From Thermoanaerobaculia bacterium (lineage in GTDB: Bacteria; Acidobacteriota; Thermoanaerobaculia; UBA5066), in contig CAWFJJ010000024.1 in the NCBI GenBank assembly GCA_963816185.1, positions 6,635 through 70,634 on the forward strand: a DNA stretch of 64,000 bases, in the 5' to 3' direction. A program made the position numbers and the translations under genes. How positions within the stretch are numbered: the first letter of the stretch is position 1; each line of letters begins with the position of its first letter. The notes below the pieces were generated by a model that saw only the letters and a list, made by a program, of their open reading frames with translations, had not been told where the DNA came from and did no database searches. Positions 8,340 to 17,984 of the stretch are shown here, piece by piece.

Positions 8340-8945
8340 GCGTGGCCGTTGCTGCCGGCGACGTTCTTGGTGTGTTGAATCTTCCTGCGGCGCTCCAGGA
8401 ATCCCGGCAGGAAGCCGGCGATCTGGCGCATTCGCTCGGCTTCGCTGCGCATGGTCAGCAGGGTCTGGCGGAACCCCAGGTCGGGCACTTCCTGGGCCAG
8501 GCGAAAGCTCAGGCGTGGATCACCCTGTTTGGGTCGTTACTGTTGAGCGATTGCAGCTCGCTGAATCCGGCGATCACGTTTCGTGAGCAGGTCCGGATCC
8601 GCGCGGCTCGGATCGGATCGGGCTCATCATCGTCAAAGAATTCGACGGCCCCGCGCAAGAAGGATCGCTCGTCGTTCAGCAGCAGCACTTCGAAGCGGCG
8701 CCGGCCGCGGGTCAGGATATCCAGCCGTCCATCGGGATACTCTTTCAACACGCGGTCCACCGTGGCCTGCAGCCGGTATTGACGATGCCTTTTTCGCTGG
8801 CCAGAACCACGCCGAACTCGAGCTTATCGCGCAGCACTTCCCCGATCATTTCCTTATAGCGGTCCTCGAAAATATGGAGAGGGAGCTGCGATCCCGGAAG
8901 CAACACAACCTGAAGTGGAAACAACGGCAGCAAGCCGTCCTGCAT
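8340..8945 (-). CDS. LON substrate-binding (N-terminal) domain protein; frameshifted
   Basis: LPLFPLQVVLLPGSQLPLHIFEDRYKEMI matches the start of the Lon N-domain. It continues in ORF 8509-8760 (RVLKEYPDGRLDILTRGRRRFEV). Confidence 0.55.
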
Positions 8946-8981
8946 GTTACTATTATGGCGTTGGATCTGTTTTCAGCGCGA

Positions 8982-9520
8982 TGATTCTTAAGCTCAAGCG
9001 AACGCCGGGAATTTTTCTGGTGGGGTTCATGGGAAGCGGCAAATCCACGGTCGGCCGCGCGCTGGCCGAAGAGCTCGGCTGGGGATTCGCCGATCTGGAT
9101 GAAGACATCGAGAAGCGCGAAGGCATGTCCATCAGCCAGATTTTCGATACCCGCGGGGAAGCGGAGTTCCGGCAAGCCGAGACGGCCGCGCTGCAGGAAC
9201 GCGTGCGCCTGATCGAGCGCGGGAAGCCGTGCGTGATCGCCCTCGGCGGCGGGGCTTTCTTGAGCGAAGAGAATTTCGAGATCGTCTCGAACAACGGCGT
9301 CAGCGTGTGGCTGGATTGTCCGTTTTCGACGGTCGAGCGGCGGTTGGCGGGGCAACACGTGGAATAAACCATCGTCCGCTGGCGCGCGATCCGGAAAAGC
9401 TGCGGGAGTTGTTCGCCGTGCGCCGCGCAGGGTACGAGCGCGCCGATTACTGCGTTCGCGGTGGAGAACGACGACGCGGCCGCGACGACCGCGAAAATCC
9501 TGGCGCTGCCGCTGTTTTAG
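8982..9520 (+). CDS. aroK: Shikimate kinase; one frameshift
   Basis: The Walker A segment IFLVGFMGSGKSTVGRALAEELGWGFADLD is followed by SQIFDTRGEAEFR. The C-terminus RPLARDPEKLRELFAVRRAGYERADYCV is in a second frame and ends at TAG 9518-9520. Confidence 0.75.
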
Positions 9521-9608
9521 GAAAATGGGGACAGCCAGCCGATTTCGGCGTGCCGTACCGGACAGGGAAGCGATCGTTCTTCGAAATCGGAGGCAGTCCC
9601 CATTTTCC
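9520..9608. terminator. Long imperfect nested inverted repeat (~28-bp stem, 34-nt loop) between aroK and the glycerate kinase gene; possible terminator/attenuator or structured RNA
   Basis: Left arm GGAAAATGGGGACAGCC..CCGATTTCG pairs with right arm CGAAATCGG..GGCAGTCCCCATTTTCC. It shares the AAAAWGGGGAC...GTCCCCWTTTT core with the hairpin at 36827-36896. Confidence 0.35.
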
Positions 9609-9612
9609 GGTA

Positions 9613-10870
9613 ATGCGTAAACACGCTCTCCAGATCTTTCGCGCGGCGCTGGATGCGGCCGATCCTTACGCGGCGGTTCTGCGGCATCTGAAATTTGACG
9701 GGCGCACGCTGATCGCGGGCCGCCGCCGGTACCGGATGGCCGATTTCGATCGCATTCAGGTGATCGGAGCGGGGAAAGCCAGCGCCGCGATGGCTCGCGC
9801 GGTGGAGCACGTTCTGGGGCGGTTCATCAAAGGCGGAATCGTCAATGTGCCCGACGGAACGGCACGCCAAGCTGCGGCGAATCGAGCTAAACCAGGCTGG
9901 CCATCCGATTCCGGATGAGCGCGGCCAGCAGGGAGCGCAGCGGATTCTCGAAATCGCGCGAGAAGCTGGGCCGCGGGATCTGCTCATTTGCGTGATCTCG
10001 GGCGGCGCGTCGGCGTTGATGCCCGCACCGTCTCCGCTGCTGACTCTGGCCGCCAAGCAGGAGATCACGCGCAAATTGCTGCAACGCGGGCGCGACGATC
10101 CACGAGCTCAATACAGTCCGCAAGCATCTGAGTCTGATCAAGGGCGGACAGCTCGCTGCCGCGGCATCTCCGGCGTGTGTGCTTAGCCTGATCCTCTCGG
10201 ATGTGATCGGGGACGATCTGGATGTGATCGGGTCAGGACCGACGGTCGGAGATTCGTCCACGGTGGCAGCAGGCGGAGTCCGTGCTGCGAAAGTTTGGTG
10301 TTTCCGTTCCCGCGGGCGTTCTTCTCGAAACGCCGAAAGCTACGCAGGCGCAGAACCTGATCTTTAATTGATCATCGGCAGCAACCGGCTGGCGATGGAT
10401 GCGGCGGCTGCGAAGGCCAAGGATCTGGGATATCGCACGCTGGTGCTCTCGAGTTCGGTGGACGGAGAGACGCGCGAGATCGCACGAATGCACGCGGCCA
10501 TCGTGAAGGAAATCCTGACGGCAGGGCGGCCCGTGCGTCGTCCGGCGTGTCTGCTTTCGGGCGGCGAGACGACGGTCACGGTGCGCGGCAAAGGGACTCG
10601 GCGGACGGAATCAGGAATTCGTTCTGGCGGCGGCGATCGCGCTGGAGGGTTTCGGTCCTGCGACGATTTTCAGCGCGGGCACCGATGGTCTGGATGGTCC
10701 CACGGATGCGGCGGGGGCGATCGCGGATGAAAGAACGCCGCTGGCGGACGCGCGCCGAATTCCTGGACAACAACGACTCGTATCACTTCTTCGAGAAGCT
10801 GGACGCGTTGGTCAAAACCGGTCCGACGGGAACCAACGTCATGGACGTGCGGATTCTGCTGGTTCCGTGA
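9613..10870 (+). CDS. Glycerate 2-kinase, MOFRL family (TtuD/GckA-like); about four frameshifts
   Basis: Segments [26 protein letters not shown]...[16 protein letters not shown], then [45 protein letters not shown], then [22 protein letters not shown], then a C-terminus [35 protein letters not shown] spread over four ORF fragments. Confidence 0.7.
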
Positions 10871-11015
10871 ATGGAGCAGGCGCCACGCCTGCACGGGCTA
10901 GCCGCGCTGGGTCGAAGTCGGACTTGAGGCCCGCCCGTCAGGGCTGGAGACCTACCACACGAGCTACTGCTCGACCGGCTGCGGCGGTTTAGCCGCAGCT
11001 GGCGACACACTATCG

Positions 11016-12372
11016 CTAGCCGAAGCCGACCGCACCAACACCTGGCCGTCGGTCGAAATATTCACGGACGGTCCGCCGTTGGAGCCGCGCAAGGTAGCGC
11101 CCCGGCGGCCCATCGGTTCCAGCTTCAGCGGCGCGCCGAACTCGTTTTCCACCGAACCGAGTCTGCTGGTGGCGGTCAGATCGAATTTGGCGGACAGCCG
11201 GCAGCGCCAGCTCGATGTGACCGGTGCGGCTGCGGACGTCCATTTTCGCCAGCGGGAGCAGGCCGGGCCGCAAGTCCACGTCGCCTCCGTTCAGATTGAT
11301 GTCGAGCGAATTGGTGAAATTCGCGAGGCTCACGTCCCACGACCGCGAAGACGTCATCCGCACCGGACCGGTCAGATCGGACGCGTTCAGATTACCCAGC
11401 GTGACGCGCATATCGGTCACCTTCTCGGCGGAAAACTCGGTATAGGGGGTGACGATCCGCAGCGGCTTGGCGAGATTGTGAAGCTGCGAGTTTCCGGTAA
11501 ACGTGCCGTTGATGGTGACCGGCCCGGCGATGTCCTGCAGGTCGATATCGGAACCGCGGCCCTTCAACTCCACCGATCCTTTGACTTTGGCCGCGCGCAG
11601 GATGTCGCTGCCGCGCACCTCCACCATCACGTCGCCCCCGATGTCTTCCAGGCGCACGCTGGCATTATCGGAGTTGACGTCGATGGAGCCATTGACGCCG
11701 CTGATATCGAAATCGCCCGAGCGGCCGTGCGCTTCAATGGTGGCTCCTTTGGGAACCACGATCTCCAGGTCGGCCGACATGCGGCGGTTGCCGCCGGAAA
11801 CCCGGTTCTGCCAGGTGCGAACGTGGATTTCGTTGGGATCTCCATCCACTTCGAGCGGCGCTTCCTGATTGGCGCGATCCGCGGAAGCCTGGTCCAGGCT
11901 GCGAATGGTGGAATGGCCGGTCACTTTCACGGTCTGGACATCGGCGCCGGTGATGCGGGCATTGCCGCGAAAACTCTCGAGGATCACGCGCGGGGCTTTG
12001 GTCGAGGGTTTCTCGGCGGCGACCGGGTAGTCGTAACTCTCGCCGAAGATATCCAGGCCTCCCAGTTCAATCCGGCTGCCCGGTCAGCCAGGGGGAGAAT
12101 CCACGTACGGCGTGCAGGCTCACGCCGAGAAAGCACAGGAAGATGACCAGCACCCATTCGCCGCTGCTGATGCCGTGCGAGGGAAGCGAACGGGAGGTGG
12201 CCGCCCAGAACAGGATCTCGATCAGCCGCAAGCCGCCCCACACGACCAGAAGCAGCGGCCAGTACCTGGCCAGATAGTCCAGCAGCTGCATCTCGGGAAA
12301 AACGTTGCGGGCCAGGAACAAAAGCCCGATGCCGATCAGCAACAGGGGCGCGACCAAGGAAGCTCGTCTCAT
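11016..12372 (-). CDS. LiaF-like envelope-stress-module protein: N-terminal LiaI-LiaF-type TM region fused to a C-terminal Toastrack (DUF4097) domain; one frameshift near 12000-12070
   Basis: N-terminus MRRASLVAPLLLIGIGLLFLARNV...YWPLLLVVWGGLRLIEIL is membrane-embedded (ORF 12067-12372). ORF 11016-11987 is a repetitive beta-strand domain (G.V.V...GSI.V..) typical of DUF4097. Confidence 0.55.
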
Positions 12373-12590
12373 AGGTTTCTGGCTCCCGGGTCGTTTGGAT
12401 TAAAGGGGGGCGGGGCGGCGTCTTTAGGTCCCAGATGTTCGGCCAGCTTGAACAGTCCGAACAGGATCAGCAGCACCGGCCAGGTGCGCGAGAAACTCAT
12501 CCGGTCGAGCTGATCGGCGGCCATCAGCAGCCCCAGCGCGACCAGCAGCACGGGTCCTCGAATCGCCACAAGAAAACTACCGCCGGTCAT
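12369..12590 (-). CDS. Small membrane protein, paralog of the LiaI-LiaF-TM region of neighbouring genes
   Basis: 73 aa, two TM helices; RTWPVLLILFGLFKLAEHL parallels RYWPLLLVVWGGLRLIEIL (11016-12372) and LKYWPVMLIALGLYMLYL (12587-13266). It overlaps both neighbours by 4 bp. Confidence 0.45.
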   Translation of the reverse strand: MTGGSFLVAIRGPVLLVALGLLMAADQLDRMSFSRTWPVLLILFGLFKLAEHLGPKDAAPPPFNPNDPGARNL

Positions 12591-13266
12591 TGATTCACCC
12601 CCGAGGAATTTCCGGTCATCCGCAGATACAGCATGTAGAGACCCAGCGCGATCAGCATCACCGGCCAGTACTTGAGCATGCGCCGGAGCTCGAAGAGTTC
12701 GAGATTGTTCAGCAGGAACACCACGCCCAGAGCGATCAGCAGAATGGGCGCTACCGGGAACCGCGATCCGCCGTGGCCCGGCACCAGGCTGGAGAATTCG
12801 TCCACCGGCTGGCCCATCTGGCGGAGCTTGGCGGTGTGGTACGCCTCAAACGCCATGTACGCCCAGAATCCCGGGATCAGCACTCCAAACAGCGGCTCGA
12901 ATCCGCCGACATCGTTGCTGCCGACAATCGTGAACAGCATCCCCAGGATGAAAACATGGATCAGGCCCTTGGCGTACTGGCCGTTATAGATCGCGCCGAC
13001 TCCCGGGATCAGCCCCAGGACAAAAGCGACTCCCGGAGACACGTCGGAGTGCGGAATCGGAGGCGGCTTGCGGAATAGCTGTATAAGGGCTGGCGTAAGG
13101 AGAATCGCTTGGCTGGGAAGATGGGTTCGGCAGGCACGTGCTCGGCGCAGTAGATGGTCCCGTGCGCGGTATGGACGCTGGCCGCATCGAGCGCTTTTCC
13201 GCAGGCCCGGCAATAGCCGACGATGGGGGTTTCGGGTGGAATCGAAGGAGGGGCTTCCGGGTTCAT
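12587..13266 (-). CDS. Zinc-ribbon membrane protein with C-terminal LiaI-LiaF-TM-like region; one frameshift
   Basis: N-terminus (ORF 13009-13266) holds the zinc ribbon YCRACGKALDAASVHTAHGTIYCAEH. It continues in ORF 12587-13321 with TM helices (GLIPGVGAIYNGQYAKGLIHVFILGMLF) and the C-terminal LRRMLKYWPVMLIALGLYML. Confidence 0.5.
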
Positions 13267-13865
13267 TTCGTTTCTCCTGCGGGACTGCGGGTGGCTGCGG
13301 TTGTGACGGCCGGCTGCTCATCGGCCCATTCCTTGAGCCGGGTTTGGATTTCGTAGACGACCTTCAGGCTGTCGTAATACTTCACGCCGCGGTTATACCA
13401 GCGGACCACGCGATCCTCCGCCGCGGTCCAGACTTTCACCGGATCGAGGTCGGCGGGCGTCAGTTGGCGCACATTCGTAAAGCGGCCGATCATGGCGAAG
13501 GACAGGACGGTCATCGCCATGCCCATGGCGAATCTCGGCTGCAGCACCGGCTCGCAGCACTCCTCCAAACAACCGGCCGAACAGGCGGCGAGCCAGCGAA
13601 GGCTTGATGATGGCGTGGCTGGGTCCCGCGGTCACCTCGAACAGGATGCGCGTGACCAGTTCGGCAGGCGCGTCGACTGCCGAGGCGCGCTCCATGAAGG
13701 CGACTGCTCCGGCGGAATCGCGAGCCAGTTCCGCGCAGGCCGCGCATCCGGCCAGGTGGGCTTCGAGGGCGGACTTCTCCTCAGCCTGGGCGCGAGCGTT
13801 CCGTCCACGTAGTCGGCCAGCAGGATTTCTACATCCCGCAGTTCACAACATTCCTTTAAAGGCAC
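13263..13865 (-). CDS. Anti-sigma factor (zf-HC2-type N-terminus, single TM); several frameshifts; start approximate
   Basis: LKECCELRDVEILLADYVDGTLAP follows directly after sigma region 4 inside ORF 13632-14624. The C-terminal part is in ORF 13263-13568 with TM helix PVLQPRFAMGMAMTVLSFAMIGRF. Confidence 0.45.
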
Positions 13866-14465
13866 TGAGCCCTTGTAATGCTTGAGGATCCGCCCCAGTT
13901 CGGCGCGGCCCCGATTCAATCTCGACTTCACTGTGCCTTCCGGCACATTCAGCACCTGAGCGATTTCCCGGTATTCCAGCTCTTCCAGATCGCGCAGGAT
14001 CACGGTTTCGCGCAAATCCGGCGAAAGCTTCTGCAGCGCGGCCTGCAGGACCTCGCTCGCTTCCCGCCCGGCCAGCAACCCTTCGGTCCGGCCCATGGAA
14101 GCGGTTTTTTCCTCCAGCATCGGCAACTGCTCTTCGATCGAGCTGCTGGCGCGCTCCAGCTTGCTACGACGGTAATGATCGATCAACAGATTACGCGTCA
14201 GCCGGGAAAGCCACACCGCAAACGAACCCTCGCCGGCCCGGAAGCTTTTGAGCGACCGGAACACGCGCAGGAAGACGTCCTGGGTGAGGTCCTGGGCTTC
14301 GTGATCCGAGCCGGTGAACCGGTAACAGATCGCGTACACACGCCGGGTATGGACTTTGACCAGGTCCTCCCAGGCGGCCTCCTCGCCGCCCAGGCAGCGC
14401 TCGACCAGTTGAGTGTCTGCGTCCAAGAGCCGTCCCAGGATCTCACGAGGCTCGCGAAATCCGAC
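13866..14465 (-). CDS. ECF-type RNA polymerase sigma-70 factor (group 4); start approximate
   Basis: Region 2: LVERCLGGEEAAWEDLVKVHTRRVYAICYRFTGSDHEAQDLTQDVFLRVFRSL. Region 4: LSPDLRETVILRDLEELEYREIAQVLNVPEGTVKSRLNRGRAEL. The track ORF runs on into the anti-sigma factor (stop lost or frameshift). Confidence 0.7.
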
Positions 14466-14565
14466 CCGATATCCGGCTCCAAAGCGATCCCTCTCCGGCG
14501 GCCGAGCGGCTGGGCGTGGTAACCTGTCGGACTGTAGCGATTGCCGCCATGGCGTTGCGTCGTGC

Positions 14566-14593
14566 GAACGAATCCTTGTGTCTCGATATGTTC
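14566..14593 (-). promoter_or_regulatory. Candidate ECF-type autoregulated promoter (GGAAC-N18-TCGTT) upstream of the sigma/anti-sigma operon
   Basis: On the minus strand GGAAC (14593-14589), an 18-nt spacer and TCGTT (14570-14566) sit ~90 nt upstream of the predicted sigma start, in the divergent region shared with the gene at 14746. Confidence 0.3.
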
Positions 14594-14745
14594 CCGGATA
14601 CCGTACTCGTTTATGAGGTTCCACATATGAGAACGAAATCCCCGCATGGAAAGTTCGCTCTACATTCTATCCACATGCGAGGGTATGGCGGGGCCGAGCA
14701 TGATCGAAGTCGATCCGGGACGTCCGAAGGGAGCAGCTGTAAGAG

Positions 14746-15795
14746 ATTGAAAAAGCAACACGTGGGCGCCGGGCTGGGAGTTCTCGCGATCCTCGCCGCC
14801 GTGCTGTTCGTGGTCTACCGCTGGCGCCATTCCGGTTTCGTCTGGGAGAAGTTCGCGGCCGTCTTCAGCGACGTCGACTGGAGCTGGCTGTCGCTGGCCC
14901 TGGCGCTGATCCTGGCGACCTACGTCGGCCGCGCCCTGCGCTGGGAGATCATGCTGCGGCCTTTGACCAAGGGGGTCCGCCTGTGGGGCCTGGTGGTGGC
15001 CACCTGCATCGGATTCACCGCAGTGGTGCTGTTTGGCCGCGCGGGCGAGCCGGTTCGCCCCTATCTCATCGCCCGGAAGGAGGGCGTGTCGTTCTCGAGC
15101 CAGGTGGCCGCCTGGCTGGTGGAGCGCATTCTGGACCTGCTGATGGTCCTGCTGATCTTCGGCATCGCCCTGACGCAGATATCGCGCAGCGGAATCCAGC
15201 CCGGGCCGCACATCCAATCGGCGCTGCAGGCCGCGGGCTGCTGGCGGGAATCACCGGGGCGCTATCCTTGGCCTTGCTGCTGGGGCTTCGGTACTTCCGC
15301 GGAAGCGTCCGGACCCGGCTGATGGATTCCCTATCGTTCCTGCCGGAAGCGCTGCATCAGAAAGTCGCCCGATTCCTGCATGCCTTCGAAGAAGGGATGC
15401 AATCCACGCCAGCGCCAGTCCTACGTCTGGCTGCTGGTGACTTACACGGTCATCGAGTGGCTGGTGATCGCGGGATGTTTTTTCTGCGTCTTCCGGGCGT
15501 TTCCGGCTACGGCGGGATGCGTATTACGGATGTAATCATCGCGTTAGGCTTTGTTGCCTTTGGGAGCGTCCTGCAGATACCGGGGGTGGGCGGCGGCATG
15601 CAGATCGCGACGGTTCTGGTGCTGACCGAGCTCTATGGGGTCAGCCTGGAGGAGGCCAGCGGAATCGCATTGGTGCTTTGGATCATCACATTCGTAGTGA
15701 TTGTGCCGCTGGGGCTGGTTCTGGCGTTCCATGAAGGAATCAAGTGGCGTAGTTTAAGACATATAGACTCGTCTTCCTCAGGCTACGAATTATGA
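14746..15795 (+). CDS. UPF0104 / lysylphosphatidylglycerol-synthase-TM-region family (flippase-like) integral membrane protein; one frameshift near 15200
   Basis: Multi-pass membrane protein GVLAILAAVLFVVYRW...LRWEIMLRP...FTAVVLFGRAGEPVRPYLIARKEGVSFSSQVAAWLVERILD. It continues in ORF 14983-15795 (IALGFVAFGSVLQIPGVGGGMQIATVLVLTELYGVSLEEASGIALVLW). The start is TTG 14746 or GTG 14761. Confidence 0.55.
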   Translation: MEKATRGRRAGSSRDPRRRAVRGLPLAPFRFRLGEVRGRLQRRRLELAVAGPGADPGDLRRPRPALGDHAAAFDQGGPPVGPGGGHLHRIHRSGAVWPRGRAGSPLSHRPEGGRVVLEPGGRLAGGAHSGPADGPADLRHRPDADIAQRNPARAAHPIGAAGRGLLAGITGALSLALLLGLRYFRGSVRTRLMDSLSFLPEALHQKVARFLHAFEEGMQSTPAPVLRLAAGDLHGHRVAGDRGMFFLRLPGVSGYGGMRITDVIIALGFVAFGSVLQIPGVGGGMQIATVLVLTELYGVSLEEASGIALVLWIITFVVIVPLGLVLAFHEGIKWRSLRHIDSSSSGYEL

Positions 15796-16310
15796 CTTGC
15801 CCGTTCTGCCGCCATCGCCAGGACCGGGTGATCGACTCCCGCGAGAGCAAAGAAGGCGACCTGATCCGCCGCCGTCGGGAGTGTCTGAAGTGCCTGCGCC
15901 GGTTCACCACCTACGAGCGCAGCGACGAGATTCCCTACATGGTGGTGAAGAGGGACGGCCGGCGGGAGCGCTTCGACCGCCAAAAGGTGCTGGAAGGGCT
16001 GCTAAGAGCTTGTGAGAAAAGGCCGGTACCCATCGCCAAGCTGGCGGAAGTGGTGGATGCCGTCGAGTCGGCGCTGGCCGAGAACCCGGAACGCGAGGTT
16101 TCGACGACAGCGATCGGGGAACTGGTGTTGGAGCGCCTGAAGAAGCTGGATAAGATCGCCTATGTGCGGTTTGCTTCGGTTTACAAGGACTTTCAGGACG
16201 CGGAATCCTTCCTGGTGGAGCTGAAGGACCTGTTCCAGGACGGAAATGAGCTCGTTGCGAGTCCTGGCAAGCCTGTAACCAAAAGCGATTTCAAGCATCT
16301 TTTGAAATAG
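15792..16310 (+). CDS. nrdR: Transcriptional repressor NrdR
   Basis: Intact 172 aa: MTCPFCRHRQDRVIDSRESKEGDLIRRRRECLKCLRRFTTYE (zinc ribbon) followed by the ATP-cone (YVRFASVYKDF). The start overlaps the upstream stop (ATGA). Confidence 0.9.
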   Translation: MTCPFCRHRQDRVIDSRESKEGDLIRRRRECLKCLRRFTTYERSDEIPYMVVKRDGRRERFDRQKVLEGLLRACEKRPVPIAKLAEVVDAVESALAENPEREVSTTAIGELVLERLKKLDKIAYVRFASVYKDFQDAESFLVELKDLFQDGNELVASPGKPVTKSDFKHLLK

Positions 16311-16427
16311 AGACTTAACTTAATTTCGGAAGACTGATATACTGGATGCGGCTTCGACGCCAAGGCAGGAATTGCATACACTACCGTTGGGTCTAGCTAA
16401 GTCTTTGGAAAACAAGGTGTTTATAGT

Positions 16428-17984
16428 TTGGCGCGGGTGAACCACGTGGATCATTTCGAAGACCAATTCCTAGGCGAGGGTCACGAGCCGCTCGGTGGAC
16501 TTCCTTTCGACGAGGAAGGCGGCTTTTTTCACCCTGAGGAGGTGCATGACGGCGAAGATTTCGCCCACGCGCATCCCGTCGAGGAATCGATTTACACCGA
16601 CGACCCGGTTCGCGTGTATCTGCGCGAAATGGGCGCCGTGCCCCTGCTGACTCGCGAGGGCGAAGTTAATCTGGCCCGCCGCATGGAGCGGGGCAAGCTG
16701 CGGATGCAGAAGGCTATTAGCCGCTCCGCGCTGGTCCAGTTGCGGGCCGTCGAAATCGCCGATCAGATCAAGCACGAGCCCGAGGAACTGGATACCTACG
16801 TGGATCTGGGGGATCTCGAGGAAGAGAGCCCCGCCTACAACAAGCGCCGCAACGAAGTTCGCGCGGACTTGGCCGAGCTGGCGGTTCTGCACAAGAAGCT
16901 GGGGCAGGTATCCGACAAGCTGGATTCGGTTCCGCTCAGCAACAAGAAGCTGCGCCGCAAGTGGATCGGCAAGATGAAGCGCGCCCGGGTGCAGGTTTCC
17001 CAGGCGATCCGGCATCTGCCCTACTACCTGTCGCAGTGGAAGGAATTCACCAAGGAAATCGAGAAGGTCGCGGAAGAGATGTCGCGCCTGGAAGCGGATC
17101 TGCGCAAGATCGAGGGACGTTCGAGCCAGACCGCGCAGACCAAGGCCCGGGAAATCCGGCGCGAAATCCGCAAGCGCGAGGAAATCGCCGGGGCGAACCT
17201 GGGCGACCTCAAGCACACGCTCTCCGTGATCCGCCACGGCGAAATCGAAGCCGAGCGGGCCAAGAAAGATCTGGTCGAGGCCAACCTCCGCCTGGTGGTT
17301 TCCGTCGCCAAGAAGTACGTCAACCGCGGTCTGCACTTGCTGGATCTGATCCAGGAAGGCAACATCGGCCTGATGCGCGCCGCCGACAAGTTCGAATACC
17401 GGCGCGGCTACAAGTTTTCGACCTACGCCACCTGGTGGATCCGGCAGGCCATTACGCGCGCCATCGCCGACCAGTCGCGCACCATTCGTATTCCCGTTCA
17501 CATGAACGAGAGCATGAACAAGTTCCTGCGCGCCACTCGCGAGCTGGAAAAAGAAATGGGCCGCGCGCCGTCGAACGACGAAATCAGCCGGCGCATGGAC
17601 ATTCCGGTGGAGAAGGTCCAGAAGCTGAAGACCATCTCGCGCGATCCGGTGTCGCTCGAAACTCCGGTCGGCCGCGACGGCGAATCCGCCCTGGGCGATC
17701 TGATCGAAGACCGCTGGGTGGGATCGCCGGTGGACGCCGTCATCGACACCAACGTTCGCGACGAGACCGCCAACATCCTCAAGACGCTTTCTCCCAAGGA
17801 GGAGAAGGTGATCCGGCTGCGCTTCGGCATCGGCTGCGAGCGCGAGCATACGCTCGAAGAGATCGGCCAGGAGTTCGACGTCACGCGCGAACGTATCCGG
17901 CAGATCGAAGCCAAGGCGCTGCGGCAACTGCGGTCGCCGGAGCGGGCTCGGCACCTGCGGGCTGCTGCTGGCCGCGCGCGATAA
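16428..17984 (+). CDS. rpoD: RNA polymerase primary sigma factor RpoD
   Basis: Intact 518 aa: [17 protein letters not shown], the rpoD box [71 protein letters not shown], and region 4 [27 protein letters not shown]. Confidence 0.9.

What the first reader, a model, noticed from the sequence alone, without database searches (positions are those of the whole stretch)
11016..14600. ECF sigma / anti-sigma operon translationally coupled to a zinc-ribbon membrane protein, a mini LiaI-LiaF-TM protein and a LiaF-like Toastrack (DUF4097) protein
Five minus-strand genes (sigma ~13866-14465, anti-sigma 13263-13865, zinc-ribbon-TM 12587-13266, small TM 12369-12590, TM-Toastrack 11016-12372) abut with 4-bp ATGA-type overlaps. 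The last three share the same C-terminal two-helix membrane element (R.WP.LLI..GL..L). Zinc ribbons, LiaI-LiaF-TM regions and Toastrack domains are components of Psp/Lia-type envelope-stress sensing networks, which are usually controlled by LiaRS two-component systems or PspF. Here the whole module is hard-wired to an ECF sigma/anti-sigma pair and preceded by a candidate GGAAC-N18-TCGTT autoregulated promoter. This would be a variant envelope-stress circuit in which the Toastrack/LiaF-TM proteins may act as the stress-sensing partners of the anti-sigma factor.
Basis: partly seen in the sequence, partly recalled or inferred. Interest (0 to 1): 0.5.

Follow-up and report, generated by a model that had tools for sequence, protein, structure and literature searches.

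The report
ECF sigma operon with LiaF-like/Toastrack proteins
This is a real five-gene envelope-stress operon of soil Acidobacteria (a stress sigma factor, its membrane inhibitor and three LiaF-like membrane proteins), conserved in every related genome examined, but the same gene arrangement is already published for Acidobacteria and the copy in this window is full of single-base sequencing errors.

Summary
The five minus-strand genes exist in the stated order, and Pfam supports every domain call: ECF sigma, zf-HC2 anti-sigma, LiaI-LiaF-TM in three proteins, DUF4097/Toastrack. The window copy is not clean. Four of the five genes carry about 9-10 frame-breaking indels. The neighbouring housekeeping genes are broken too, while substitutions still show purifying selection, so this is assembly error, not decay. 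Corrected spans: sigma 13856-14550, anti-sigma 13263-13846, ZnR/LiaF-TM 12577-13266, small TM 12369-12590, TM-Toastrack 10964-12372.

The operon is present in the same order in 78 of 78 informative species loci (Bryobacterales, Acidobacteriota). It sits in conserved rpoD-nrdR-LPG_synthase_TM synteny, and 4-nt overlaps are the commonest junction type at three of four junctions.

The conserved site is CGAACTT-N14-TCGTT (14657-14632), found upstream of the sigma gene in 79 of 79 loci.

The idea itself is published. Ravi et al. 2024 (mSystems, Table S4 and Text S2.4) list sigma, zf-HC2 anti-sigma, (B-box+)LiaI-LiaF-TM and LiaI-LiaF-TM+Toastrack in Granulicella and Acidobacterium, and propose Lia-like signalling through the sigma factor. 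B. subtilis sigma-W already controls a Toastrack operon.

Verdict: real, ordinary-to-moderately interesting, a new member of a known, experimentally uncharacterised kind.

The parts
14632..14657 (-). Conserved ECF-type promoter: -35 CGAACTT (14657-14651), 14-nt spacer, -10 TCGTT (14636-14632). It lies about 82 nt upstream of the sigma ATG.
   Evidence: GAAC-N17-CGT occurs once upstream of the sigma gene in 79 of 79 loci. The strict motif occurs 78 times in 2.18 Mb, 76 of them upstream of sigma. It is the only perfect match in the 64-kb window. Alignment.
14661..14669 (-). Conserved TAGAATGTA element 3 nt upstream (5') of the CGAACTT -35 element, which starts at 14657. TAGAAT resembles a sigma-70 -10 box. 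Function unknown.
   Evidence: Invariant in the window's clade and replaced by CTTGGATTCAAG in another clade.
14567..14594 (-). It is present but not conserved, and the GAAC-to-CGTT spacing is 19 nt against 17 nt in the conserved site.
   Evidence: The segment is gapped in L005 and L006. In other clades the homologous GGAAC lies 10-12 nt from the ATG.
13856..14550 (-). ECF sigma factor, about 230 aa with a conserved N-terminal MAAIATV... extension. The window copy has two frame-breaking indels (14451 +G; about 13883-13875).
   Evidence: Pfam Sigma70_r2/r4_2 and NCBIfam sigma70-ECF 116 bits against a cutoff of 42.9. Start and stop mapped from L001, L002 and L004. Closest solved relatives are SigE 9e-31 and SigW 6e-28.
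13263..13846 (-). Membrane-anchored zinc-binding (ZAS, zf-HC2) anti-sigma factor, about 195-204 aa: N-terminal C-x25-H-x3-C-x2-C motif, one moderately hydrophobic TM segment, and a conserved C-terminal domain of about 80 aa. The window copy has three frame-breaking indels.
   Evidence: zf-HC2 28.4 bits against a cutoff of 22.2. The ZAS ligand motif is present in 74 of 75 orthologs. Indels.
12577..13266 (-). Zinc-ribbon (B-box-like) protein: Pro-rich linker, multi-helix membrane region, and a C-terminal LiaI-LiaF-TM hairpin (about 228 aa). As read, the frame stops at 12587 because of an extra G at 12596. There is one further net frameshift in the linker.
   Evidence: PF18917 1.2e-11 and PF22570 2.3e-9. 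More than 5,600 homologs, the best 120 of which are nearly all full-length. The zinc-ribbon motif is found in 81 of 82 loci, 77 of them in frame; the miss at L001 is a search-window artefact, since its protein carries the motif. Alignment A2. The AF2 model is low-confidence (pLDDT 61).
12369..12590 (-). Small two-helix LiaI-LiaF-TM protein (73 aa). It is the only intact ORF of the five.
   Evidence: PF18917 1.4e-8. Present in all 80 species loci. 11 of 18 substitutions against L001 are at codon position 3.
10964..12372 (-). Three-helix LiaI-LiaF-TM anchor, flexible linker and Toastrack (DUF4097) beta-helix domain (468 aa). The window copy has two +1 insertions (12083, 11199).
   Evidence: Intact 468-aa homologs up to 94% identical. 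DUF4097 34 bits against a cutoff of 22.9. AF2 pLDDT above 90 for residues 111-449. Top Foldseek hits are 4QRK, 3LJY, 4YGU, 3PET and 4OPW.
14747..15795 (+). Divergently transcribed LPG_synthase_TM (flippase-like) membrane protein gene, also frameshifted in the window. It is a conserved neighbour, not shown to belong to the system.
   Evidence: No second copy of the ECF motif faces it.

Best explanation
This is the Bryobacterales ortholog of a conserved acidobacterial cell-envelope-stress module: an autoregulated ECF sigma factor operon.

Shown:
- The sigma gene is preceded by a GAACTT-N14-TCGTT promoter of ECF type.
- It is followed, mostly with overlapping stop and start codons, by a zf-HC2/ZAS single-pass anti-sigma factor, a zinc-ribbon-LiaI-LiaF-TM protein, a mini LiaI-LiaF-TM protein and a LiaI-LiaF-TM-anchored Toastrack protein.

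Inferred mechanism:
- In unstressed cells the cytoplasmic ZAS domain of the anti-sigma holds the sigma factor at the membrane.
- Perturbation of the membrane or envelope is sensed by the membrane complex formed by the anti-sigma and the three LiaF-like proteins. Their shared two-helix hairpins would pack together in the bilayer.
- The Toastrack beta-helix, probably on the outer face, would act as a docking or sensing surface next to the anti-sigma's conserved C-terminal domain.
- The sigma factor is then released, by a conformational change or by proteolysis of the anti-sigma.
- The released sigma transcribes its own operon (positive feedback that also re-supplies the inhibitor and sensor proteins in fixed ratio) and an unknown regulon elsewhere.

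The frameshifts in the window are sequencing or assembly errors, not biology.
For: - Domains.
- Fold: AF2 beta-domain pLDDT above 90. Best PDB matches are the Toastrack exemplars 4QRK and 4OPW.
- Strict co-conservation and order: 78 of 78 informative species loci, down to 41% Toastrack identity.
- Junctions: 4-nt overlaps are commonest at three of four junctions. Small-to-Toastrack 53 of 71, sigma-to-anti-sigma 43 of 72, anti-sigma-to-ZnR 37 of 77. ZnR-to-small overlaps by 4, 11 or 14 nt in 58 of 70.
- Promoter: one GAAC-N17-CGT site upstream of sigma in 79 of 79 loci. 76 of 78 strict matches in 2.18 Mb lie there.
- Anti-sigma: the ZAS ligand set C-x25-H-x3-C-x2-C is present in 74 of 75 copies.
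- Closest solved sigma factors are SigE and SigW, which by established knowledge are envelope-stress ECFs. Sigma-W controls yvlABCD and pspA (PMC3498285).
- The same architecture and the same functional proposal are published for Acidobacteria (PMC11237479).
- Error rather than decay: 61-72% of substitutions against L001 fall at codon position 3 in all five genes and in the neighbours. Housekeeping neighbours are equally broken. The re-assembled genome pair L002/L003 shows the same clustered 1-nt indels.
Against: - There is no experimental evidence for any member of this operon type.
- The sensing-partner role of the three membrane proteins is inferred only from co-conservation and overlapping genes. 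They could equally be outputs.
- Topology is uncertain. Three helices and the positive-inside count (inside 3.6 K+R against outside 1.9) put Toastrack outside. Ravi et al. 2024 infer Toastrack domains to be intracellular, and B. subtilis LiaF's C-terminal domain is, from my own knowledge, cytoplasmic.
- The anti-sigma's TM segment is only moderately hydrophobic (median Kyte-Doolittle maximum 1.44).
- No regulon member other than the operon itself was found in the window or in 2 Mb of flanks.
- No PspA gene lies nearby.
- Foldseek TM-scores are low (0.15-0.49), although the probabilities are 0.9-1.0.
Confidence: 0.6

Rival explanations
1. Effector model. The sigma/anti-sigma pair senses stress on its own, for example by regulated proteolysis as with RsiW or RseA. 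The ZnR-LiaF-TM, mini LiaF-TM and Toastrack proteins are sigma-dependent outputs that stabilise or repair the membrane, like sigma-W-dependent YvlB/YvlC or LiaI/LiaG. They would not be regulators.
For: - The three genes lie downstream of the autoregulated promoter, so stress induces them by construction.
- In B. subtilis the Toastrack protein YvlB is a sigma-W regulon member and interacts with PspA/LiaH in two-hybrid assays (PMC9239133).
- LiaI is, from established knowledge, a membrane anchor for LiaH rather than a sensor.
Against: - Pure outputs are rarely kept in invariant order with overlapping stop and start codons next to the anti-sigma across a whole order (78 of 78 loci).
- LiaF and VraT, the best-studied LiaF-TM+Toastrack proteins, are regulators (stated in PMC11237479).
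- No PspA-like partner is encoded nearby.
Confidence: 0.25
2. Redox or thiol switch. The anti-sigma is an RsrA-like ZAS protein whose zinc-thiolate site is oxidised under disulfide or electrophile stress, releasing the sigma factor. The membrane proteins would be secondary.
For: The full C-x25-H-x3-C-x2-C ligand set is conserved in 74 of 75 copies, 72 of them with exactly 25 residues between the first Cys and the His. From my own knowledge this equals the RsrA C11/H37/C41/C44 spacing. There is a weak NCBIfam match to RsrA (4.9e-4, far below cutoff).
Against: - Many ZAS anti-sigmas (RslA, ChrR, RsiW) bind zinc without sensing redox (established knowledge).
- This one is membrane-anchored with a conserved extracytoplasmic tail and is welded to three membrane proteins.
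- The best PDB matches, RsiW and RslA, are insignificant.
Confidence: 0.08
3. The operon is a decaying pseudogene array in this organism. The roughly 10 frameshifts are real and the system is non-functional here.
For: As read, four of the five genes are interrupted. The indels cluster in 8.9-15.8 kb, while nrdR and rpoD next door are intact.
Against: - Substitutions against L001 are 61-72% third-position in the intact frame on both sides of every frameshift.
- Shikimate kinase, glycerate kinase and the LPG_synthase_TM gene are broken in the same way.
- The same kind of clustered 1-nt indels separates two assemblies of one genome: L002 and L003 differ by 14 events, 13 of them within the last 1.8 kb.
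- 8 of 80 reference MAG loci also have split operon genes.
Confidence: 0.05

Closest known systems
Sigma / zf-HC2 anti-sigma / LiaI-LiaF-TM / Toastrack operons of Acidobacteria catalogued by Ravi, Anantharaman, Aravind, Gennaro et al. 2024 (mSystems; PMC11237479, Table S4: Granulicella mallensis Acix8_0610/AEU34960.1; Text S2.4: Acidobacterium ACO33311.1)
   Same: [quoted passage not shown] The phylum is the same. The functional proposal is the same: Lia-like membrane signal passed to a sigma factor.
   Different: - The window's operon comes from a different order (Bryobacterales).
- It has an extra 57-73-aa mini LiaI-LiaF-TM gene that the published string does not list.
- It lacks the DUF2089 protein and the HEAT-repeat anti-sigma of the paper's core four-gene version.
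Bacillus subtilis sigma-W / RsiW and its regulon operon yvlABCD (Toastrack YvlB, PspC-like YvlC) and pspA-ydjGHI
   Same: An ECF sigma of the SigW/SigE type controls Toastrack- and Psp-type membrane proteins. SigW is the second-best solved relative of the window's sigma (6e-28). RsiW is the best, though insignificant, anti-sigma match. Regulon data are in PMC3498285.
   Different: - In Bacillus the Toastrack genes are unlinked regulon members, not welded to sigW-rsiW.
- YvlB has SHOCT-like N-terminal helices, not a LiaI-LiaF-TM anchor.
- The sigma-W promoter consensus (TGAAAC-N16-CGTA, from my own knowledge) differs from GAACTT-N14-TCGTT.
LiaIH-LiaGFSR (B. subtilis) and VraTSR (S. aureus)
   Same: The building blocks are the same: LiaI-LiaF-TM hairpins (LiaI, LiaF) and Toastrack domains (LiaG with DUF4097, LiaF with DUF2154). 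LiaF and VraT are membrane regulators of a transcription switch (PMC11237479).
   Different: - The output here is an ECF sigma/anti-sigma pair, not a histidine kinase and response regulator. No kinase or regulator gene lies within about 6 kb.
- No PspA/LiaH gene lies nearby.
- The NCBIfam LiaG equivalog scores 40.7 bits against a cutoff of 285.
Mycobacterial SigE-RseA
   Same: It is the best solved sigma relative (9e-31) and the best NCBIfam model (SigE PRK09647, 150 bits). It has a ZAS anti-sigma and an N-terminal extension on the sigma factor. From my own knowledge it is linked to a PspA response through ClgR.
   Different: - The score is far below the equivalog cutoff of 265 bits.
- From my own knowledge RseA is soluble, and no LiaF-TM or Toastrack genes sit in the sigE operon.

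Membership tests
ECF (group 4) sigma-70 factors | Only regions sigma-2 and sigma-4 are present, and the protein matches ECF models above threshold. | tested here: met
   PF04542 75 bits and PF08281 65 bits. TIGR02937 sigma70-ECF 116 bits against a cutoff of 42.9. No r1 or r3 hits.
ECF (group 4) sigma-70 factors | A cognate anti-sigma is co-transcribed, and an autoregulatory promoter has a GAAC-type -35 and a CGT-type -10. | tested here: met
   The anti-sigma is adjacent in 78 of 78 loci. GAACTT-N14-TCGTT is conserved in 79 of 79 loci. Promoter activity itself was not tested.
A specific ECF group (ECF Hub / Casas-Pastor 2021 classification) | The protein scores above threshold against a group-specific HMM. 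| not testable with these tools
   Group HMMs are not available here. The main text of PMC7826278 mentions no DUF4097 or LiaF context, and its supplements are not held. All NCBIfam equivalogs (SigE, SigW, RpoE and others) score below cutoff.
ZAS (zinc-binding, zf-HC2) anti-sigma factors | N-terminal H-x3-C-x2-C with an upstream Cys or His ligand, and a Pfam zf-HC2 match. | tested here: met
   PF13490 28.4 bits against a cutoff of 22.2. C-x25-H-x3-C-x2-C is present in 74 of 75 orthologs. Zinc binding was not tested.
LiaI-LiaF-TM (PF18917 / PF22570) | HMM match above the gathering score to the two-helix hairpin. | tested here: met
   PF18917 scores 44.9, 35.1 and 27.6 bits against a cutoff of 27 for the ZnR, small and Toastrack proteins. 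The third is marginal in the window but is also annotated in its orthologs.
Toastrack (DUF4097/DUF2154/DUF2807) | [quoted passage not shown] | tested here: met
   PF13349 34 bits against a cutoff of 22.9. The AF2 all-beta domain 111-449 has pLDDT above 90. Foldseek rank 1 is 4QRK (E 1.4e-5, probability 1.00) and 4OPW is also hit; TM-scores are low at 0.15-0.49. The PDB sequence search found nothing.
LiaFSR / VraTSR three-component systems | The LiaF-like protein is encoded next to its histidine kinase and response regulator. | tested here: not met
   No HisKA/HATPase or response-regulator genes lie in the 6-kb flanks of L001, L002 or L004. The neighbours are LPG_synthase_TM, nrdR, rpoD, MOFRL and SKI.
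LiaG (NCBIfam NF049997 equivalog) | Score at or above the curated cutoff. | tested here: not met
   40.7 bits against a cutoff of 285, with only the C-terminal 120 residues aligned.
Classical Psp system | A PspA/IM30 effector is encoded in or next to the operon. | tested here: not met
   No PspA_IM30 family appears in any called gene of L001-L004. The rest of the genome could not be searched.
Ravi et al. 2024 sigma-linked Toastrack context, core four-gene version | Anti-sigma with extracellular HEAT repeats, plus a DUF2089 (ZnR-HTH-SHOCT-like) protein. | tested here: not met
   The anti-sigma has only about 80 residues after its TM segment and no HEAT hit. No DUF2089 appears in the neighbourhoods. 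The operon matches instead the acidobacterial variant in Table S4 and Text S2.4.
B-box zinc finger (as named for ACO33311.1) | A cross-brace C-x2-C...C-x2-C...C-x2-H ligand pattern, or a Pfam zf-B_box match. | tested here: inconclusive
   No Pfam zinc-finger hit at E<=0.1. Many orthologs have C-x2-C-x4-C-x2-C-x9-C-x2-H. The window's clade keeps only C-x2-C...C-x2-H, with Asp and Ser in place of the middle Cys pair. The AF2 model shows four short strands at modest confidence.

The most novel reading that the evidence does not exclude
In this acidobacterial family the Toastrack beta-helix is periplasmic (three TM helices, N-terminus inside). It directly gates the conserved 80-residue periplasmic tail of the ZAS anti-sigma, with the ZnR protein and the mini LiaF-TM protein completing a four-protein intramembrane sensor. 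This would be a LiaF-type sensing module that controls an ECF sigma factor without a histidine kinase. It could act as the primary sigma-E-like envelope-stress pathway of Bryobacterales, which would fit its fixed position next to rpoD.
Probability: 0.2. Interest if true: 0.55.

Novelty: new member of a known kind. Interest (0 to 1): 0.3.

Why it matters
Acidobacteria are among the most abundant soil bacteria, and their stress signalling is almost unstudied. This operon is found in every Bryobacterales locus recovered here. It is a tidy, genetically compact candidate for how LiaF/Toastrack-type membrane sensors can feed an ECF sigma factor instead of a two-component system.

What this analysis adds beyond the published catalogue entry:
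- the operon was present, in the same order, in every informative locus recovered, spanning many Bryobacterales species, and it lies in conserved core synteny;
- a third, mini LiaF-TM gene;
- the real autoregulatory promoter (GAACTT-N14-TCGTT), which could be used to predict the regulon genome-wide;
- a topology prediction that conflicts with the published generalisation that Toastrack domains are intracellular.

None of this changes the category. It is a predicted but experimentally untested envelope-stress module.

Tried and rejected
It is not conserved, it has a 19-nt GAAC-to-CGTT spacing against the invariant 17, and it lies 16 nt from the conserved ATG.
- Apparent absence of the zinc ribbon in L002 and L004: this was a gene-calling artefact. 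The ribbon is in frame upstream.
- Search for further regulon promoters in the window and in 2.18 Mb of related loci: nothing beyond chance.
- ECF group assignment from Casas-Pastor et al. 2021: the main text is uninformative and the supplements are not held.
- PDB sequence searches for the Toastrack protein and the anti-sigma: no significant hits.
- AF2 model of the ZnR protein: too low in confidence (pLDDT 61, pTM 0.38) to settle its topology.
- GC3 frame-tracking to map indels across the whole window: too insensitive and abandoned.
- Rfam and tRNA scans of 10.0-16.0 kb: nothing.
- Sigma-70 promoter scan: no hit. The terminator scan was not above shuffled expectation.
- Long opposite-strand ORFs such as 11079-12146(+): treated as high-GC artefacts, because the minus-strand frames carry all the homology.

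Full report
**1. What is in the sequence**

- Two of the stated spans are not multiples of three (680 and 1357 nt).
- The stated anti-sigma span contains a stop codon.
- The Toastrack reading frame changes twice.
- Only the 73-aa gene (12369-12590) is intact.

Even so, each frame segment carries obvious homology. Provisional frame-corrected proteins gave clear Pfam matches:

| Protein | Pfam matches |
|---|---|
| Sigma factor | Sigma70_r2 and Sigma70_r4_2 |
| Anti-sigma | zf-HC2 |
| ZnR protein | LiaI-LiaF-like_TM1 and LiaF-TM |
| Small protein | LiaI-LiaF-like_TM1 and LiaF-TM |
| Toastrack protein | LiaI-LiaF-like_TM1 above the gathering score (LiaF-TM below it, 23.9 against 27 bits), plus DUF4097/Toastrack |

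NCBIfam places the sigma factor in the ECF superfamily. Its best models are SigE and SigW, both below cutoff.

**2. The frameshifts are errors in this window, not biology**

Database searches returned many full-length, single-ORF homologs. The ZnR protein reaches 89% identity and the 468-aa Toastrack protein reaches 94%.

The closest intact locus, L001 (JGI soil metagenome), is 91% identical in DNA over 7.5 kb. The window differs from it by scattered one-base insertions and deletions. Inside the five genes there are 9-10 frame-breaking events.

The same kind of indel breaks the neighbouring shikimate kinase, MOFRL glycerate kinase and LPG_synthase_TM genes.

Read in L001's frame, 61-72% of the window's substitutions fall at third codon positions in every gene, on both sides of every frameshift. 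The genes are therefore under purifying selection.

Two assemblies of one related genome (L002 and L003) differ by 14 one-base indels, 13 of them within the last 1.8 kb. Eight of the 80 reference MAG loci also have split operon genes. The pattern is typical of long-read metagenome assemblies.

Corrected boundaries, mapped through L001:

| Gene | Window span (minus strand) | Start / stop |
|---|---|---|
| Sigma | 14550-13856 | ATG / TAA |
| Anti-sigma | 13846-13263 | GTG / TGA |
| ZnR protein | 13266-12577 | ATG / TAG |
| Small protein | 12590-12369 | ATG / TGA |
| Toastrack protein | 12372-10964 | ATG / TAG |

The sigma start is the conserved ATG of MAAIATV... It is shared by L002 and L004, and the substitutions around it look like coding sequence.

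**3. Conservation**

A scan of one genome per species returned the 80 best loci. All 80 loci are from Acidobacteriota, mostly Bryobacterales, Bryobacteraceae and 'Solibacteraceae' MAGs.

Profiles built from intact copies found sigma, anti-sigma, ZnR-TM, small TM and Toastrack in that order on one strand in all 78 loci with enough upstream DNA. This holds down to 41% Toastrack identity.

The operon lies in conserved core synteny:
- nrdR in 72 loci;
- rpoD in 63 loci;
- a divergent LPG_synthase_TM gene next to the sigma gene in roughly 67 of 74 loci.

Overlapping junctions are the rule:

| Junction | Commonest arrangement |
|---|---|
| Small to Toastrack | 4-nt overlap, 53 of 71 |
| Sigma to anti-sigma | 4-nt overlap, 43 of 72 |
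| Anti-sigma to ZnR | 4-nt overlap, 37 of 77 |
| ZnR to small | 4-, 11- or 14-nt overlap, 58 of 70 (14 nt commonest, 30 of 70) |

In the window the ATGA overlap at ZnR/small may itself be produced by the extra G at 12596.

The zinc ribbon is essentially universal. The motif is found in 81 of 82 loci, 77 of them in frame. The one miss, L001, is a search-window artefact, because its protein carries the motif. In many lineages the ribbon is a fuller C-x2-C-x4-C-x2-C-x9-C-x2-H module.

**4. Promoter**

In other clades the homologous GGAAC sits 10-12 nt from the ATG.

What is invariant is an upstream element, TAGAATGTA...CGAACTT-N14-TCGTTCTC (window 14669-14632).
- A GAAC-N17-CGT site occurs exactly once upstream of the sigma gene in 79 of 79 loci.
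- The strict motif GAACYT-N14-TCGTY occurs 78 times in 2.18 Mb scanned on both strands, and 76 of those are at this position.
- It is the only perfect match in the 64-kb window.

This is a textbook ECF-type autoregulatory promoter. No other regulon member could be identified in the available sequence.

**5. Proteins and topology**

*Anti-sigma.* It has the complete ZAS ligand set C-x25-H-x3-C-x2-C in 74 of 75 orthologs. It also has one moderately hydrophobic segment near residue 100 and a well-conserved tail of about 80 residues.

*Toastrack protein.* AlphaFold2 (mean pLDDT 81.6, and above 90 in the beta domain) gives three N-terminal helices (7-24, 29-58, 70-91), a disordered linker and an all-beta domain at 111-449.
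- The best PDB matches are 4QRK, 3LJY, 4YGU, 3PET and 4OPW.
- Ravi et al. name 4QRK and 4OPW as Toastrack exemplars.
- Foldseek probabilities are high, but global TM-scores are low.
- K+R counts over 15 orthologs favour N-terminus inside, loop 2 inside, and loop 1 and the Toastrack domain outside.

That topology agrees with Popp et al. 2022, who describe LiaG's DUF4097 as extracellular. It disagrees with the general inference of Ravi et al. 2024 that Toastrack domains are intracellular. I treat the topology as unresolved, leaning towards outside.

*ZnR protein.* The model is low-confidence and is used only for gross layout.

*Sigma factor.* Its closest solved relatives are SigE (9e-31) and B. 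subtilis SigW (6e-28).

**6. Comparison with what is known**

Ravi, Anantharaman, Aravind, Gennaro and colleagues (mSystems 2024, PMC11237479) defined LiaI-LiaF-TM and Toastrack.
- Text S2.4 describes sigma/zf-HC2/Toastrack operons. It notes variants with a LiaI-LiaF-TM anchor and an additional B-box+LiaI-LiaF-TM protein in Acidobacterium.
- It proposes that the system works like the lia operon, acting through the sigma factor.

ECF control of Toastrack and Psp genes also has experimental precedent. yvlABCD and pspA-ydjGHI are sigma-W regulon members (PMC3498285).

The window's operon therefore belongs to a known, catalogued kind that has not been characterised experimentally.
- It fails the membership tests for LiaFSR-type systems (no kinase or regulator nearby), for the LiaG equivalog, and for a classical Psp system (no PspA nearby).
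- It differs from the published core four-gene version by lacking DUF2089 and a HEAT-repeat anti-sigma.

**7. Mechanism**

My best-supported reading (confidence about 0.6) has these steps:
- The ZAS anti-sigma sequesters the ECF sigma factor at the membrane.
- The three co-translated LiaF-like proteins form the sensing and modulating complex with it.
- Stress releases the sigma factor.
- The sigma factor then drives the GAACTT-N14-TCGTT promoter of its own operon and an unknown regulon.

The sequestration and autoregulation steps rest on family knowledge plus the conserved motifs. The sensing role of the three membrane proteins is an inference from their invariant linkage.

The main rival (about 0.25) is that they are sigma-dependent effectors. 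A redox-switch reading of the ZAS motif (about 0.08) and true pseudogenisation (about 0.05) are less likely.

**8. Verdict**

The genes, domains, order and overlaps are real. The coordinates, ORF integrity and promoter are wrong or imprecise.
- Novelty: new member of a known kind.
- Interest: 0.3.

Noticed in passing
window 8900-15800: About 25 single-base indels relative to the 91%-identical locus L001 break the shikimate kinase gene (8915-), the MOFRL glycerate kinase gene (about 9500-10870, + strand), four operon genes and the LPG_synthase_TM gene (14747-15795). The adjacent nrdR (15792-16310) and rpoD (16428-17984) are intact. The errors are clustered, as in the L002/L003 assembly pair.
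   Followed up: partly
window 14661-14669 (- strand): TAGAATGTA lies 3 nt upstream of the -35 CGAACTT and is invariant in the window's clade. A different conserved block (CTTGGATTCAAG) replaces it in another Bryobacterales clade. It could be a sigma-70-type -10 box for a second promoter, an operator, or a signal for the divergent LPG_synthase_TM gene.
   Followed up: partly
window 14550-14420 (- strand): The ECF sigma factor has an N-terminal extension of about 45 residues. Its first 12-13 residues (MAAIATVxQ(I/V)(S/T)T) are conserved across clades. Its role is unknown.
   Followed up: no
window about 11730-11700 (- strand); Toastrack protein residues 214-223: An invariant E-x-H-G-x-x-G-D-F-D motif, plus further invariant S/N/R/D positions, lies on consecutive rungs of the beta-helix in all 15 aligned orthologs. 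It may be a ligand- or partner-binding site.
   Followed up: no
window 14747-17984 (+ strand) and loci L001-L084: The ECF operon sits in a fixed core-genome block across Bryobacterales: rpoD, nrdR and LPG_synthase_TM on one strand, divergent from the ECF operon. MOFRL glycerate kinase and shikimate kinase often lie downstream, convergent. This argues for vertical inheritance and a housekeeping-level role.
   Followed up: yes
L002 and L004: Public gene calls for the ZnR protein start at an internal ATG and cut off the zinc ribbon (193-195 aa instead of about 230). L001's sigma gene is called from an internal TTG, and a spurious 60-aa ORF covers the true N-terminus.
   Followed up: yes
L026 (CALQCC020000007.1): A contig titled 'MAG: Bordetella parapertussis' carries the typical Bryobacterales operon and synteny at 52% Toastrack identity. 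The record is probably mislabelled or the bin contaminated.
   Followed up: no
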